Source: Macrostomum hystrix
Lineage: Eukaryota > Animalia > Platyhelminthes
Direction: 5' to 3'
DNA: 64,000 nucleotides
NCBI GenBank assembly: GCA_950097015.1
Contig: CATNEN010000038.1
Coordinates: 26,846,001-26,910,000, forward strand
Positions within the stretch are counted from its first letter, which is position 1. Every line of letters starts with the position of its first letter. A model generated the notes under the pieces. That model was given only the letters and a program-made list of their open reading frames with translations, searched no databases and had not been told where the DNA came from. Positions 197 through 11,147 of this stretch are shown here, piece after piece. A program made the translations under genes and the position numbers.

Positions 197-485
197 CCAG
201 GATAGCCCCTGACTGCTGTGGCGGTGGTGGCCGATGCAGCCTAAAGAAGGCGTGATGCTCAACGCAAGTCTGCCACAGCCATTTGCAAGCCCTGCTGCTA
301 ACCAGGCCGTAGGTTAGAGTCTGAGCAGCGCCAGTGGAATCTCGAACAGACAATAAGAAATTCTTGCGCTTGAAACTGATCTTGAGCAGGCTTAGCCAGG
401 AGTACAGGTGCAGTCGTTGGGTGCCGCGGAACACCGCTACACCGGACGCATTGACGCCAACTTGCATTTCAGTTTTCTCAGCGTC
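197..485 (-). CDS. PTPN4: PTPN3/4-like FERM protein, exon 6 (FERM-C); gene continues beyond the window's left edge
   Basis: SWLSLLKISFKRKNF..RACKWLWQTCVEHHAFFRLHRPPPP is a FERM-C signature. GTGAG donor at 196. PDZ and PTP domains are not in the window. Confidence 0.9.
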
Positions 486-656: not shown

Positions 657-794
657 CTGTTGAGAAAGCAAGAGAAATTATTAAATGCTGACTAACTACT
701 TTAAGTAGCGTTGATAACAAACTTAAAGTGTTTACGATTTAAAAAATATTTACAAATACTGCGAATAAAGCAAAAATTTAGGAGCCATAAGGAT

Positions 795-1605
795 CTATGA
801 TATTTGAAATCCCGCCTTGAGGATCTAGGATACTGGAAATCATGGTTTGAGGATCTAGCTAGGATACTGGAAATCCCATCTAGAGGATCTAGGATACTGG
901 AAATCCCATCTAGAGGATCTAGGATACTGGAAATCCCATCTAGAGGATCTAGGATACTGGAAATCCCATCTAGAGGATCTAGGATACTGGAAATCCCATC
1001 TAGAGGATCTATGATATTTGAAATCCCGCCTTGAGGATCTAGGATACTGGAAATCCCATCTAGAGGATCTAGGATACTGGAAATCCCATCTAGAGGATCT
1101 AGGATACTGGAAATCCCATCTAGAGGATCTAGGATACTGGAAATCCCATCTAGAGGATCTAGGATACTGGAAATCCCATCTAGAGGATCTAGGATACTGG
1201 AAATCCCATCTAGAGGATCTAGGATACTGGAAATCCCATCTAGAGGATCTAGGATACTGGAAATCCCATCTAGAGGATCTAGGATACTGGAAATCCCATC
1301 TAGAGGATCTAGGATACTGGAAATCCCATCTAGAGGATCTAGGATACTGGAAATCCAATCTAGAGGATCTAGGATACTGGAAATCCCGCCTTGAGGATCT
1401 AGGTAGGATACTGGAAATCCCATCTAGAGGATCTAGGATACTGGAAATCCCGCCTTGAGGATCTAGGTAGGATACTGGAAATCCCATCTAGAGGATCTAG
1501 GATACTGTAAATCCCATCTAGAGGATCTAGGATACTGGAAATCCCGCCTTGAGGATCTAGGTAGGATACTGGAAATCCCATCTAGAGGATCTAGGATACT
1601 GGAAA
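795..1605. repeat. 30-bp minisatellite (aaatcccatctagaggatctaggatactgg)
   Basis: Near-perfect periodicity; PTPN4 intron 4. Confidence 0.95.
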
Positions 1606-1702
1606 ACTAAATATATTAAGACAATTTAGGAATCGGAAAATCCCAAGTCTGGGAATTTAGTCTAGGAAACTGAATAAAAAAATAATTTAAAAGACAAATA
1701 TA

Positions 1703-1882
1703 ATATGTAGAACTTTCAATCCAGCAGAGTATGACAGAAAATAAAAAAAATCTGCTTTAAGCATAGTTATAGGATATAAAAAGTTCTTGATCAATTTTCA
1801 ATTTAGTCATGTTATGACTGCTACAGGCATTGATATCAATTGTTTTGATTGATAGCACTTGCAGCAGCTTCGATCATGACAA
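1703..1882 (-). ncRNA. Box H/ACA snoRNA, SNORA16/snR46-like guide (copy A), PTPN4 intron 4
   Basis: 5' hairpin GUCAUG..CAUGAC with pocket AUCGAAG / UCAUAA. Imperfect H box AAAUUG. 3' hairpin AGAACUUU..AAAGUUCU followed by ACA and 3 nt. Confidence 0.7.
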
Positions 1883-1939
1883 TTAAACAAACAGTTCAGT
1901 AAATTCTAATTGTTGAATTTCAGGCAAACATCAGTATTG

Positions 1940-2084
1940 CAATTTTGAGCTGCAAAACAAACTTATTAAACAATTTGCTCAATGAAATTCATGAATTTGC
2001 CATCAACTCATTAATCTTGTCACGTTATGACTGCTGGGAGCAATTTGATTTTGGTGGTCATTCCAAGCAGCTTCGAGCGTGACT
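1940..2084 (-). ncRNA. Box H/ACA snoRNA, SNORA16/snR46-like guide (copy B), PTPN4 intron 4
   Basis: 5' hairpin GUCACG..CGUGAC with pocket CUCGAAG / UCAUAA. H box AGAUUA. 3' hairpin UGAGUUG..CAGCUCA followed by AAA (an ANA variant). Confidence 0.68.
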
Positions 2085-2251
2085 CGAGAGGTAGAAATTA
2101 GTTATTTGTATTACTATAATATTGAAATATTGTCCCATAGCAACGAGAGATTAGACCCTGTAAGGATGCATTCTATATAGAACAAGACCATTGTGACTCT
2201 TACTACATGGTTGCTAATGACACTCTGTATGAATGCTTTCATAAGCAACAG

Positions 2252-2575
2252 TAATAATAATAATAACATAATTGCAGGAGGGCTGCGGGCAATGGCACAT
2301 CATTTGGTGACACTAGACCCGCAGCCAGCGAGGAGGCAATTCTGCCCAATTTGCTGACTCCTGAGCACACACGCACACAGGTGTGTACATCTGGTCTAAC
2401 TTTCTTATAGTCAGGCTGTATACACTTTCACTGTACCCTGAAGGTTGGCCCTAGAGGGCGTAAATTGCACGACAAGCCCCGAGCCTTCTCTCCGCGGCTG
2501 CGCCCCAAATCAGTCGTGCTTAGAGAGACATTGGTGCGAAAGGTAAACGAGTTAATCGCTCTGCCACTCAACCCC
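2252..2575 (-). mobile_element. SINE-like retroposon family 1, longest copy
   Basis: Homologous to 6986-7238 and (inverted) ~10950-11147. (TTA)n 3' tail. Approximate TSD cataagcaac (2240-2249) / cattagcaac (2575-2584). Confidence 0.75.
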
Positions 2576-2592
2576 ATTAGCAACCATAAATA

Positions 2593-2914
2593 AAAATTTA
2601 TATTGATAATAATAATTGATTACACCTGCCCCAACGGGGCCAGATGTGCAGCCGGCAGCACAGCCGCAGCTATGGCTGTCCTAGCCAGCCATCTAGCCAT
2701 CTGAAGGCTGCGTACGGCTGTTCAGTCCGTGGACTGGGGGGACGCCACACCCACGTCCAATTATCCCAGCTGATGCTGGTACCCATTTAACAGCTGGGTG
2801 AACTGAAGCAATGCAAAGTTAATTGTCTTGCTAAAGGACACAAATTGTTCTAGTGGGAATCGAACCCCCGACCTTCAAGTCGTGAGTCCGACGCCCTAAC
2901 TAATAGGCTACAAC
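2593..2914 (-). mobile_element. tRNA-derived SINE with a conserved central domain
   Basis: Minus-strand head with A box (TAGCCTATTAGTTAGG) and B box (GGTTCGATTCCC), then GTGTCCTTTAGCAAGACA..CACCCAGCTGTTAAATGGGTACC, as in metazoan SINE superfamily domains. AT-rich tail. 12-bp TSD caaccataaata at 2581 and 2911. Confidence 0.8.
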
Positions 2915-3061
2915 CATAAATACAGTTGCTAATGATACTCTGTAAAATTGTTTACATTAGCAACCAGATCTCCAAGACTAAAAACGGTTTAATGGTTATT
3001 GGTACAAATGCTTTCATTGTCAACCAGATCAAATGCTAAATTGATAAATAATTATCCTTAC

Positions 3062-3359
3062 CTGTGCTTCTGATGCAGCAGGGCTACATCTTTTTCAAAT
3101 GCCGGAGTCTGTCCAGTCAGGAATCTAAAATCACCAGCATAGCCATCTTTGTGCTGCTCTGGATTATAGTCGCCAAGTTCAGACTGCAGCGCATAGCTAG
3201 CCAGCAGGGCGGCAGTGTCGTAGGGACAAATTAGCCGACCAGTTAGTAGGTCCCTCTTCAATTGTAAAAAGAAATGATAGCGCGTGTACTCCTCCTGTAG
3301 GCGGGACGGATCCGAGGCGTAGAATTTCACGCCGAAATGAAAATTGTAGGGCGGCGGCA
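3062..3359 (-). CDS. PTPN4: PTPN3/4-like FERM protein, exon 4 (FERM central lobe)
   Basis: VKFYASDPSRLQEEYTRYHFFLQLKRDLLTGRL..AALLASYALQSELGDY; QEEYTRY is typical of PTPN3/4. CAG acceptor, GTAAG donor. Confidence 0.93.
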
Positions 3360-3409
3360 CTGCAACAGTTTTGAGGGGCATTTGGATGGCTGAGATGAGA
3401 TGGCCCTCA

Positions 3410-3904
3410 CCATCTATCTTCCTCGCCCTAGCCATCTATCTTCCTCGCCCTAGCCATTTATCTTGCTCGCCCTAGCCATCTATCTTCCTCGCCCTAGCCA
3501 TCTATCTTCCTTGCCCTAGCCATCTATCTCCCTCGCCCTCACCATCTATCTTCCTTGCCCTAGCCATCTATCTTCCTCGCCCTACCCATCTATCTTCCTC
3601 GCCCTACCCATCTATCTTCCTCGCCCTAGCCATCTATCTTCCTCGCCCTAGCCATCTATCTTGCTCGCCCTAGCCATCTGTCTTCTTCGCCCTAGCCATC
3701 TATCTTGCTCGCCCTAGCCATCTATCTCCCTCGCCCTCACCATCTATCTTCCTTGCCCTAGCCATCTATCTTCCTTGCCCTAGCCATCTATCTTCCTTAC
3801 CCTAGCCATCTATCTTCCTCGCCCTAGCCATCTATCTTCCTCGCCCTAGCCATCTATCTTCCTCGCCATCACCATCTATCTTCCTTGCCCTAGCCATCTA
3901 TCTT
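3410..3904. repeat. 22-bp minisatellite (gccctagccatctatcttcctc)
   Basis: Direct periodicity; PTPN4 intron 3. Confidence 0.95.
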
Positions 3905-3972
3905 GATATTCGCTCCACTTTTTCATTCCTATATGCCAAGAGAAAAAGTAAACGAAACAATACTTTTCCTAC

Positions 3973-4018
3973 CATGCTTTAGTTGTTTTCGCAACGGCTT
4001 AGTTGGGTCTAGCCAGCG
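3973..4018 (-). CDS. PTPN4: PTPN3/4-like FERM protein, exon 3
   Basis: RWLDPTKPLRKQLKH is the FERM-N WLDPxKxxxKQ motif. CAG acceptor, GTAGG donor, ends phase 1. Confidence 0.9.
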
Positions 4019-4098
4019 CTGCAAGAAATAAAGAAGTATAAATAAAGTATAACAAAACGGAACAATCGAATAGACGAAATAAATCAAAGCAAACTCAC

Positions 4099-4203
4099 TC
4101 GAGAATTCGGTTCATCCTGATACTCGAGACCGAAATAGTCTCTTTCAAGCAGTTCTAAATATTCAAACACAGAGTCAAGCAGGGCTTGACCCTTGCATTT
4201 TCT
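4099..4203 (-). CDS. PTPN4: PTPN3/4-like FERM protein, exon 2
   Basis: RKCKGQALLDSVFEYLELLERDYFGLEYQDEPNSR carries the FERM-N DYFGL motif. AG acceptor and GTGAG donor, 105 nt. Confidence 0.9.
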
Positions 4204-4399
4204 CTAAAATTGGACAATGGCGTCTTGTTAAATGCAGAAAAGTTAACAGGTTAACTAAAAAAACATTTTTTTCATTAACGAAATAGAGAAACTAACGACG
4301 AACTTTAAACGAAAAGAACGAATAAAAAATTAACCTATGCTAATTTCTACAATAGTTAATGTATGACCATTTACACCATGAAGCTTGACTCAAATTAAT

Positions 4400-4519
4400 G
4401 AATGTTCGTCGAGCAAATATTTATTAAACCAATGGTCACTTGATGAGTTAATTTAGTCACAATTTGACTGCGAAGGGCACTTATATTGTAGCAAATTCTG
4501 GCAGCTTCGAGTGTGACAA
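4400..4519 (-). ncRNA. Box H/ACA snoRNA, SNORA16/snR46-like guide (copy C), PTPN4 intron 1
   Basis: 5' hairpin GUCACA..UGUGAC with pocket CUCGAAG / UCAAAU. H box AAAUUA. Weaker 3' hairpin, then ACA and 3 nt. About 120 nt. Confidence 0.72.
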
Positions 4520-4582
4520 ATAAAAATTTAAACAGCAAAACAACAAAACAGCCCACACACAAATATGAAAGTCGCAACTCAC

Positions 4583-4711
4583 GTCGACATCAAACGAGGT
4601 GTGTGTATCGTCTAGAAAGACAACGATACACCTGACCTGATTAGCGGGCTCCTGCCTGCTAGCAGCCTCAGTTCTGGCTACGTGGTAACTGCCTATGAAG
4701 CGGAACGACAT
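4583..4711 (-). CDS. PTPN4: PTPN3/PTPN4 (PTP-MEG)-like FERM-domain protein, first coding exon
   Basis: MSFRFIGSYHVARTEAASRQ..VRCIVVFLDDTHTSFDVD resembles the PTPN3/4 N-terminus (recalled as TYNVRASEL..VVCNILLLD). GTGAG donor at 4582, phase 0. Confidence 0.85.
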
Positions 4712-6404: not shown

Positions 6405-6982
6405 GCAGTGCTTATTCCCAAGGTACCATAGAAATAATTGTTGTCTTATTCCTACAGTACTATGGGAATAATTTCCTGCTTATCCTCAACCTCATGGCAT
6501 ACTGACGAGATAGCTGTCCTTTCTTCAACATATTCTGTAGGAATAATTTCTTGCTTATCAGCATGGCACACTGACGAGATAGCTGTCCTATTCTCAACAT
6601 ATTCCGTGGGAATAATTTCCTGCTTATCCACATGGCACACTGACAAGATAGCATCCTATCTTATAACTGTCCTATGCCACCATATTTTGGTTAACTAATT
6701 GCAAAAGAATTCAGAAAAATTTAATTTGTTTACTTGCCCAAAAAACCCAAAAAAGAAAAGAAAATTGCAGTCACTATAGATGATGATAAGACAGCTATCT
6801 TGTCAGTGTGTGTGGATAAGCAGGAATATCTGTGTGGATAAGCAGGAAATTATTCCCATGGAATATGTTGAAGATAGGACAGCTATCTCATCAGTGTGCA
6901 GTGCAGATAAACAGGAAATTATTCCCACTACAGTAGGAATAGGACAAAAATATTTCTACTGTACTGTGGGGATAAGCACTGC
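6405..6982. mobile_element. Foldback/MITE-like non-autonomous DNA element with long imperfect TIRs built from ~69-bp subrepeats
   Basis: Begins gcagtgcttattccc and ends ggggataagcactgc. Arm 6405-6660 is inversely related to arm 6785-6982. Subrepeat motif ctgacgagatagc at 6502, 6571 and (variant) 6640. No clear TSD. Confidence 0.75.
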
Positions 6983-6985
6983 CTT

Positions 6986-7238
6986 AATAATAATAATAAT
7001 TGTAGGAGGGCTGCGGGCAATGGCACATCATTTGGTGACACTAGGCTAGACCCACAGGCGCAGCCAGCAAGGAGGCAATTCTACCCATTCCGCTGACTCC
7101 TGAGCACACACACCTGTAGATACTGTACACAGGCACACACTCAGGGTAGATGTGTAGATAGATGTGTACATCTACCCTGTCTTTCTCATTGTCAGGCAGT
7201 GTATATTTCACTGTGCCTTGGAGGTTGGCCCTCAAGGG
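6986..7238 (-). mobile_element. SINE-like family 1, 5'-truncated copy inserted at the MITE terminus
   Basis: (TAA)n tail on the plus strand. Perfect 10-bp TSD gcactgcctt at 6976-6985 and 7239-7248. Confidence 0.8.
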
Positions 7239-10054: not shown

Positions 10055-10949
10055 CGGCTGCACACGTCTACTGAGCTCTCGTCAGGTCTATTTTTGGGCA
10101 AGGAAATTCCGCGGCTTTGCATGGTGATGGTAAGTACGTGTGTCATGTGACATTTTAGAGAAATTTTAGAGAAAAATAGTTGACTTGCGCTACCAGTCTA
10201 TTTCGTCATGGTCTAAATTTAGCTATGCTGAAATCGCAGCGAACTGCGACCAAAGATATGAGAGTACATTTGTTGGGCACGTACAGAAAAATGTCTAAAA
10301 ATAGAACTGAATCACGTGAACATTTGTGTTCCTACATAGAAAGGAGGGGCAGACTGTATGTGACAGCAAATCAGCTATAGATGAACAGAAAGTGAGAATT
10401 ATTTCTATTTCGTCGCTATAGCTAATATGGTACCCTATGAGACGGTACCAAAAATGCCTTTTCATATCATGCCCTAAACAATTTTTTGTCAAAAAAAATT
10501 CTACCCACAAAATGTCGCCATGAAACCATGCGGTGAAAATTAAGATGTATATGGTGGACTTTTACCAAAATCAGTCATTCGGTTTGGGAGCTTTCGTAAA
10601 ATAGGCAGCGGGTATTTGGTCTTTCCCCATGGGAAAAATAACGACTTTCTACTGTCAACAGCCTGTTTTGAGCATAATGATTAATTAAAACCAACGGACT
10701 TGGTCTTAACATATGCTCAACAATGTCTAAAGCTGCGTGCCTGCATGACAGTCGTCCAATTTACCAACCCGATTGTCTTAAGAAATTTCTAGAAGTGTCC
10801 TGAAAAATCTGCTATTTGTTTACTGTTTATACTACTGATAGTAGGGTAGGCTGCATCTGTTTACAAAGCAGAATAAAATCAATAACTTAAAAACGCGTTT
10901 GCCTCTCGCGCCAAGGCTTCTCAGCTCAATTTTGCGATGATTAATTAAT

Positions 10950-11147
10950 TTGGGCTACAGCCACGAAGAGAGGGCTTAAGACGGGGCTTGCCGTGCAATT
11001 TACGCCATTGACGATAGGAAAGTCAGGGCAGATGTACACACCTGTGTGCCTGCGTACAGTATCTGTGTGCGTGTGTGCTCAGGAGTCAGCGGAATGGGCA
11101 GAATTGCCTCCTCGCTGGCTGCGGGTCTACTGTCGCCAAATAATGCA
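10950..11147 (+). mobile_element. SINE-like family 1, diverged and internally deleted copy
   Basis: ggggcttgccgtgcaatttacgcc..gtgtgctcaggagtcagc..gcctcctcgctggctgcgggtcta is the reverse complement of the 2252-2575 copy. Confidence 0.75.

What the first reader, a model, noticed from the sequence alone, without database searches (positions are those of the whole stretch)
1703..4519. Three paralogous H/ACA snoRNAs (SNORA16/snR46-type pocket) in the introns of a PTPN3/4 phosphatase gene
Seen: three hairpins at 1806-1880, 2019-2083 and 4456-4517. Their lower stems covary (GTCATG/CATGAC, GTCACG/CGTGAC, GTCACA/TGTGAC), the CTGC/GCAG upper stem and the internal loop are conserved, and the apical parts have diverged. 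On the host (minus) strand each has an H-box-like hexamer 13 nt after the upper stem (AAAUUG, AGAUUA, AAAUUA), a second hairpin, and ACA or AAA. Knowledge: the pocket UCGAAG / UCA(U/A)A pairs around LSU rRNA UUUUGA-U-C-CUUCGAU, the peptidyl-transferase-region pseudouridine I recall as yeast Psi2865 (snR46) and human Psi4442 (SNORA16). Inference: a locally amplified snoRNA family in an atypical host, since this is a signalling phosphatase rather than a ribosome or translation gene. The three dissimilar 3' hairpins may have different targets.
Basis: partly seen in the sequence, partly recalled or inferred. Interest (0 to 1): 0.78.

Follow-up and report, generated by a model that had tools for sequence, protein, structure and literature searches.

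The report
Three snR46-type guide RNAs in introns
Two introns of a flatworm signalling-phosphatase gene carry three related copies of a likely small guide RNA, predicted to mark one conserved uridine in the ribosome's catalytic centre; the sequences are real, but this kind of guide and this gene layout are ordinary.

Summary
The three hairpins are exactly as described (3 matches, 0 in 100 shuffles; only these 3 copies in 64 kb, all on the host strand). The host exons are 91-100% identical over most of their length to a Macrostomum lignano FERM-PDZ-phosphatase whose best solved relative is PTPN3; the phosphatase exons lie off-window. Each copy folds as hairpin-hinge-hairpin-ACA+3 (163-180 nt). 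The 5' pocket fits the large-subunit rRNA uridine equivalent to yeast U2865 (snR46; human ACA16/SNORA16) and is the unique best site in 25-26 of 26 surrogate rDNA units. Rfam SNORA16, snR46 and TtnuHACA9 match the pocket, but far below their cut-offs. Caveats: copy h1 lacks a canonical H box; h1 and h2 have a U-U mismatch to the target; no rRNA target was found for any 3' hairpin; expression, the species' own rRNA and genome-wide copy number could not be tested. The host is not unusual: human SNORA16B lies in PPP2R5A. One weak lead is that the changed h1/h2 pocket also fits an 18S site. Verdict: new members of a known kind, low interest.

The parts
1703..1882 (-). h1: predicted 180-nt H/ACA RNA. 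5' hairpin 1880-1806 with pocket strands AUCGAAG / UCAUAA; non-canonical H-like hexamer AAAUUG 1804-1799; 3' hairpin 1787-1709 (9-bp lower stem); ACA 1708-1706 plus 3 nt
   Evidence: (z -2.86); Rfam TtnuHACA9 20.7 bits against a cut-off of 100
1908..2085 (-). h2: predicted 178-nt H/ACA RNA. 5' hairpin 2083-2019 with pocket strands CUCGAAG / UCAUAA; H box AGAUUA 2017-2012; 3' hairpin 2010-1914 (6-bp lower stem); ACA 1913-1911. Shorter alternative ends at AAA 1945-1943 (146 nt)
   Evidence: (z -2.17); no snoRNA H/ACA family listed for it
4357..4519 (-). h3: predicted 163-nt H/ACA RNA. 5' hairpin 4517-4456 with pocket strands CUCGAAG / UCAAAU; H box AAAUUA 4454-4449; 3' hairpin 4439-4363 (9-bp lower stem); ACA 4362-4360. 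Shorter alternative ends at ACA 4405-4403 (120 nt), whose 3' hairpin does not form in the minimum-energy fold
   Evidence: (z -0.14); Rfam snR46 18.3 bits against 43, E 0.12; SNORA16 16 bits against 35
4583..4711 (-). Host gene first coding exon (start codon, start of the FERM region); GT donor at 4582
   Evidence: tblastn with P0002
4099..4203 (-). Host exon 2; the 379-nt intron 4582-4204 holds h3
   Evidence: 94% over 35 aa; AG acceptor and GT donor shown
3974..4015 (-). Host exon 3 (ends approximate)
   Evidence: 100% over 14 aa
3062..3360 (-). Host exon 4 (FERM_M; 5' end approximate); GT donor at 3061 opens the 2.4-kb intron 3061-657 that holds h2 and h1
   Evidence: 91% over 100 aa
569..656 (-). 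Host exon 5
197..485 (-). Host exon 6 (FERM_C); the gene continues beyond the left end of the window
   Evidence: (94% to M. lignano proteins P0001-P0003)

Best explanation
These are three diverged copies of a likely intron-encoded box H/ACA guide RNA of the snR46/SNORA16 type, predicted to be cut from the pre-mRNA of a Macrostomum PTPN3/4-type gene and to direct pseudouridylation of the 28S rRNA uridine equivalent to yeast U2865. Shown: the conserved 5' hairpin and pocket, the 13-nt spacing to the H hexamer, a 3' stem closing directly on ACA, sense orientation in host introns, and 11-12 possible pairs around that uridine in surrogate rRNAs. Inferred from the known pathway: release by splicing and trimming, a cut between the tandem h2 and h1, binding of dyskerin/NOP10/NHP2/GAR1, and catalysis. 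h3 has the family pocket (UCAAA) and a canonical H box and is the best candidate for a working guide. h2 and h1 carry one U-U mismatch, and h1 has a degenerate H box, so they may be weaker or decaying copies. The 3' hairpins are most likely structural, with no guide role.
For: Three copies, same strand, same gene, none elsewhere in 64 kb. A 3' stem of at least 6 bp closing on ACA and opening within 12 nt of the H hexamer: 3 of 3 real copies, against 2, 8 and 8 of 300 shuffles and 2 of 300 window controls (thresholds set after seeing the copies). The target U is the unique best site in 26, 25 and 25 of 26 whole rDNA units. Random pockets reach 11 or more at that site in 7 of 200000 draws. The Rfam eukaryotic LSU consensus carries the target sequence. 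Register against 11 yeast modified positions: 267 of 275 at shift 0, at most 125 at any other shift, and 192 of 200 for positions outside the search motif. Three Rfam H/ACA families align on the pocket strands. At least 8 bp suffice and single internal mismatches are tolerated (PMC6049503, abstract and passages).
Against: No Rfam family reaches its cut-off, and h2 gets no H/ACA family hit even at E 10. h3 folds no better than its shuffles (z -0.14). Covariation rests on 2 pairs in 3 sequences (46 of 500 shuffles reach it). h1 has no ANANNA in its hinge. The predicted RNAs (163-180 nt) are longer than the 135-position SNORA16 model, though shorter than the 197-position snR46 model, and their 3' domains show no detectable likeness to each other (416, 126 and 364 of 1000 shuffles score as well). 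A random pocket finds a site scoring 11 or more somewhere in an rDNA contig in 3-11% of 3000 draws. The surrogate rRNAs were fetched by the target motif, so they cannot show its conservation.
Confidence: 0.82

Rival explanations
1. Only h3 (perhaps also h2) is a working guide. h1, or both h1 and h2, are duplicated pseudogene copies that are poorly expressed or inactive.
For: h1's hexamer ends in G and no other ANANNA lies in its hinge. The h1/h2 right arm pairs with 28S at about -2.9 kcal/mol against -6.1 for h3. In human data, non-expressed H/ACA copies more often lack the H motif (PMC10234308, passages).
Against: h1 and h2 keep all 11 stem pairs, with compensatory changes, while the apical parts have diverged. 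They keep the best-folding structures and an ACA at the stem base. The same paper found an H motif in only 55.6% of expressed H/ACA RNAs. h1 gains a seventh pair on its left arm.
Confidence: 0.25
2. h1 and h2 have drifted to a second or different target: an 18S uridine near position 115, bound with three unpaired bases.
For: Their shared right arm (UCAUAA) pairs 6 of 6 with the 18S site, where h3 pairs 4 of 6. The site scores 11.5 for h1 in 9 of 26 units. Only 3 of 135 double changes of h3's arm, and 1 of 300 random pockets, gain such a recurring site. Three or four unpaired bases are tolerated (PMC6049503). A Xenopus SNORA16 copy did switch to 18S-137 (PMC6984369, section 10).
Against: Found after the fact, with the threshold set at the observed score and three gap lengths tried. 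The 28S duplex is still about 3 kcal/mol stronger. The left arm has a G-A mismatch at the 18S site, and h2 scores only 10.5. The site varies between units and this species' 18S is unknown.
Confidence: 0.1
3. The hairpins are a small transposon (MITE) or another repeat family, and the rRNA match is chance.
For: Inverted ends GTCA...TGAC. The intron holds other repeats, including a tRNA-derived element. Genome-wide copy number could not be counted.
Against: Only 3 copies in 64 kb, all sense to one host gene. No target-site duplication in the flanks. Conservation is confined to the stems and pocket. The match is to the exact uridine that snR46 modifies, and the snR46 model aligns over the pocket and H box.
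Confidence: 0.04

Closest known systems
Yeast snR46 (Rfam RF01253), guide for 25S Psi2865
   Same: Pocket strands UCGAAG and UCAAA; h3's hinge CUAAAUUAAC equals the model consensus; same target position.
   Different: 18.3 bits against a cut-off of 43; shorter; the 3' domain aligns poorly. Intron-encoded and in three copies here, whereas yeast snoRNAs mostly come from single genes with their own promoters (PMC3089462, passage).
Vertebrate SNORA16A/B (ACA16/U98b; Rfam RF00190)
   Same: 5' pocket and UCGAAGCUGC strand; same target (28S 4412 in PMC3542256); intronic paralogues; SNORA16B lies in a phosphatase-subunit gene, PPP2R5A.
   Different: 16 bits against 35; 163-180 nt against a 135-position model; unrelated host (SNHG12 in vertebrates); h1/h2 pocket reads UCAUAA.
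Tetrahymena TtnuHACA9 (RF02316) and Drosophila pug28S-3327 (Rfam snopsi28S-3327)
   Same: TtnuHACA9 shares both pocket strands with h1. The Drosophila RNA is a 28S pseudouridylation guide; that it marks the same uridine and has several paralogues is recalled, not tested.
   Different: 20.7 bits against 100; no Rfam match to the Drosophila family was listed.
Intronic H/ACA snoRNA clusters of Drosophila
   Same: More than one H/ACA RNA in one intron (h2 and h1, 25 nt apart); such clusters are described for Drosophila (PMC3089462, passage).
   Different: Only two per intron here; the host is a signalling gene; processing not shown.

Membership tests
Box H/ACA snoRNA | Hairpin-hinge-hairpin-tail fold | tested here: met
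   Minimum-energy folds of all three; z -2.86, -2.17 and -0.14, so weak for h3
Box H/ACA snoRNA | H box ANANNA in the hinge | tested here: inconclusive
   Met for h2 (AGAUUA) and h3 (AAAUUA); not met for h1 (AAAUUG)
Box H/ACA snoRNA | ACA directly after the 3' hairpin, 3 nt from the end | tested here: met
   ACA abuts a 6-9 bp stem in 3 of 3 copies; 2-8 of 300 in controls. The true 3' ends are not measured.
Box H/ACA snoRNA | Two-strand pocket with at least 8 bp around an unpaired UN, at canonical distance from the box | tested here: met
   11-12 pairs in surrogate rRNAs; 13 nt between upper stem and hexamer. The species rRNA was not available.
Box H/ACA snoRNA | Stable RNA bound by dyskerin/NOP10/NHP2/GAR1 that directs pseudouridylation | not testable with these tools
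   No sequencing run was listed
Rfam SNORA16 clan (RF00190, RF01253) | Score at or above the family gathering threshold | tested here: not met
   16 against 35 and 18.3 against 43 for h3; none at the threshold in the window. Filed as working like snR46/SNORA16, not as an Rfam member.
snR46/SNORA16-type guide (functional class) | 5' pocket complementary around the LSU U equivalent to yeast 2865 | tested here: met
   one U-U mismatch in h1 and h2
PTPN3/PTPN4 host gene | FERM + FERM-adjacent + PDZ + PTP architecture | tested here: inconclusive
   The window holds FERM exons only. The 94%-identical M. lignano proteins carry PF09379, PF00373, PF09380, PF08736, PF00595 and PF00102, and P0002's best solved relative is PTPN3 at E 1.9e-202.
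MITE | Target-site duplication and many dispersed copies in both orientations | tested here: not met
   No duplication in the flanks; 3 copies in 64 kb, one strand; whole genome not available

The most novel reading that the evidence does not exclude
After duplication, the tandem pair h2-h1 changed its pocket from the family's UCAAA to UCAUAA and became a dual or switched guide. It would modify an 18S uridine near position 115 through a three-base gap, while h3 keeps the peptidyl-transferase-centre site: guide retargeting caught within one host gene, giving a flatworm-specific pseudouridine.
Probability: 0.1. Interest if true: 0.45.

Novelty: new member of a known kind. Interest (0 to 1): 0.2.

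Why it matters
It supplies a likely flatworm guide for a conserved peptidyl-transferase-centre pseudouridine that Rfam's cut-offs miss, which helps annotate Macrostomum small RNAs. It also warns that knocking down or editing this PTPN3/4-type gene could disturb rRNA modification. It adds one more case of snoRNA mobility into broadly expressed hosts and of a two-copy intronic cluster outside Drosophila. None of this would surprise a snoRNA specialist. Only the weak 18S retargeting lead would.

Tried and rejected
Whole-genome copy count: no genome is held for this window. Expression: no RNA holder was listed for 1690-2260, which is no evidence either way, and no reads could be laid. Rfam at gathering thresholds: 0 matches in the window. 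3' pocket targets: a loose scan against 26 rDNA units gave many hits scoring 9-11.5. Against 333 conserved U contexts with shuffled controls, none of five box choices stood out: the best was the short h2 form at 10.5, reached by 15 and 42 of 300 shuffles, in one of five candidates; the others were reached by 123-300 of 300. snRNA and mRNA targets were not tested. Homology among the 3' domains: not detected. The model R1 finds nothing in 13 rDNA loci (141 kb), a negative control. No orthologous Macrostomum locus could be fetched, so conservation between species is untested. Plus-strand reading: rejected, because the pocket complementarity, H hexamers and ACA boxes are all on the minus strand and the model scores the plus strand at 13-14 bits. 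Earlier-findings look-ups by place and by sequence returned nothing. Literature: 'Macrostomum'+'snoRNA' gave 8 listings, 'snR46'+'SNORA16' 0, and 'Macrostomum'+'rRNA'+'pseudouridine' 1 listing; none concerns this locus by title or abstract start. Those papers were not opened, and genome annotations and supplements were not searched, so prior annotation is not excluded.

Full report
Observation. The three hairpins are present at the stated coordinates. A pattern for the shared stems and internal loop gives 3 matches, all on the minus strand, and 0 in 100 dinucleotide shuffles. A covariance model built from them, run over the whole window with filters off, finds only these three; the next best score is 14 bits. 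All 33 stem cells pair and two lower-stem pairs change on both sides, but three sequences cannot make that significant (46 of 500 shuffles). The hexamers AAAUUG, AGAUUA and AAAUUA each follow the upper stem by 13 nt.

Host. Minus-strand exons encode FERM_M and FERM_C. The last exon is 94% identical to three Macrostomum lignano proteins that carry FERM, FERM-adjacent, PDZ and tyrosine-phosphatase Pfam domains (4 hits among 113 candidates). The best solved relative of one of them, P0002, is human PTPN3 (E 1.9e-202), followed by the PTPN4 catalytic domain. tblastn maps six coding exons between 4711 and 197, with GT donors at the five checked. The PDZ and phosphatase exons are off the left end, so the phosphatase label rests on orthology. 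h3 lies in the 379-nt first coding intron, 63 nt from the donor. h2 and h1 lie head to tail, 25 nt apart, in the 2.4-kb fourth intron.

Anatomy. Folding gives hairpin-hinge-hairpin-tail for h1 (1882-1703, 180 nt, z -2.86), h2 (2085-1908, 178 nt, z -2.17) and h3 (4519-4357, 163 nt, z -0.14). In each, a lower stem of 9, 6 or 9 bp closes directly on an ACA. The same test passes in 2, 8 and 8 of 300 shuffles and in 2 of 300 window segments that follow an ANANNA (thresholds chosen after seeing the copies). Shorter forms are possible: h2 ending at AAA 1945, and h3 ending at ACA 4405, where the 3' hairpin does not form in the minimum-energy fold. h1 has no canonical H box.

Family. Rfam gives nothing at gathering thresholds. 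Below them, h3 aligns to SNORA16 (16 bits against 35) and snR46 (18.3 against 43, E 0.12), and h1 to Tetrahymena TtnuHACA9 (20.7 against 100). In each case the match centres on the pocket strands UCGAAG and UCA(A/U)A and the hinge. h2 has no H/ACA hit. These RNAs therefore work like snR46/SNORA16 by their pocket but are not Rfam members by score.

Target. This species' rRNA was not available, so I fetched 140 eukaryotic rDNA loci by the target motif. That is circular for the motif's presence; independent support is the Rfam LSU consensus, which carries the same sequence. 26 of the 140 loci span 18S to 28S. In them the predicted U is the unique best site for h1 in 26, h2 in 25 and h3 in 25, scoring 12, 11 and 11. 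Random pockets reach 11 at that site in 7 of 200000 draws, but reach 11 somewhere in a contig in 3-11% of 3000 draws. Eleven yeast modified positions (tables in PMC5699541 and PMC8307265, passages) fit at the expected offsets in 267 of 275 cells over 25 of the 26 units, against at most 125 in any other register. The target is therefore the yeast U2865 equivalent, in the peptidyl-transferase centre. PMC3542256 (passage) pairs snR46-2865 with human ACA16-4412; the number 4442 is recalled. h3 has the family's UCAAA, whereas h1 and h2 have UCAUAA, which leaves a U-U mismatch. Single internal mismatches are tolerated when at least 8 bp remain (PMC6049503, abstract and passages).

3' hairpins. They show no likeness to each other, and no pocket in them finds a conserved rRNA site above chance.

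One lead. The h1/h2 right arm pairs fully with an 18S stretch near position 115 if three bases stay unpaired. h1 scores 11.5 there in 9 of 26 units; 3 of 135 double changes of h3's arm and 1 of 300 random pockets gain such a recurring site. A Xenopus SNORA16 copy switched to an 18S target by point mutation (PMC6984369, section 10 and passages). Against this, the test was post hoc, the 28S duplex is about 3 kcal/mol stronger, and the species' 18S is unknown. I give it 0.1.

Mechanism. Most likely the host pre-mRNA is spliced, the introns are trimmed to the protein-protected RNAs (with a cut between h2 and h1), and the H/ACA complex pseudouridylates the 28S U. All these steps are inferred from the established pathway. 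No sequencing run was listed and no genome is held.

Comparison and verdict. Small paralogue families in introns of one host, usually with the same target, are described as typical, and human SNORA16B lies in PPP2R5A (PMC4696412, passages). Hosts are reported to need mainly broad expression (PMC3511168, abstract and passages). Intronic H/ACA clusters are known in Drosophila (PMC3089462, passage). My searches found no paper on this locus (listings only; supplements and genome annotations not seen). Interest 0.2.

Noticed in passing
window 2210-2249, 2925-2964 and about 2980-3030: A second three-copy family of 40-50 nt hairpins (arms GTTGCT...AGCAAC) in the same intron as h1 and h2; an HMM finds no other copy in the window. 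Two copies fold well (z -2.81 and -3.39), the third does not. No H or ACA box at a fitting distance was seen by eye and no Rfam family matched. Further half-copies lie near 2138 and 2578. Unexplained.
   Followed up: partly
window 2581-2922: A likely tRNA-derived SINE on the minus strand: tRNA-like head at 2912-2851 (Rfam tRNA 28.5 bits; not called by ARAGORN), flanked by a 12-nt direct repeat at 2581-2592 and 2911-2922.
   Followed up: partly
window 2255-2510, 6985-7238 and 10948-11145: A dispersed repeat of about 250 nt in three places, one inverted, 79-93% alike in pieces.
   Followed up: no
window 6405-6982: A nest of 69-nt units forming long inverted repeats (arms up to 96 nt, 90% complementary), upstream of the host's first coding exon; possibly a foldback element.
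   Followed up: no
window 25499-24690 and 13455-12730 (minus strand): Exons of an ion-channel gene, probably a voltage-gated potassium channel (Ion_trans E 1.6e-31), with long simple-repeat arrays in and around it; the link to the 13455-12730 frame is my inference.
   Followed up: partly
window 780-1610 and 3403-3900: Tandem arrays of 30-nt and 22-nt units inside the host's introns.
   Followed up: no
L002-L045: All 44 loci returned from the prokaryote genome collection carry the eukaryotic 28S motif, so they look like contaminating eukaryotic rDNA contigs in those assemblies (confirmed by Rfam for L025 only).
   Followed up: partly
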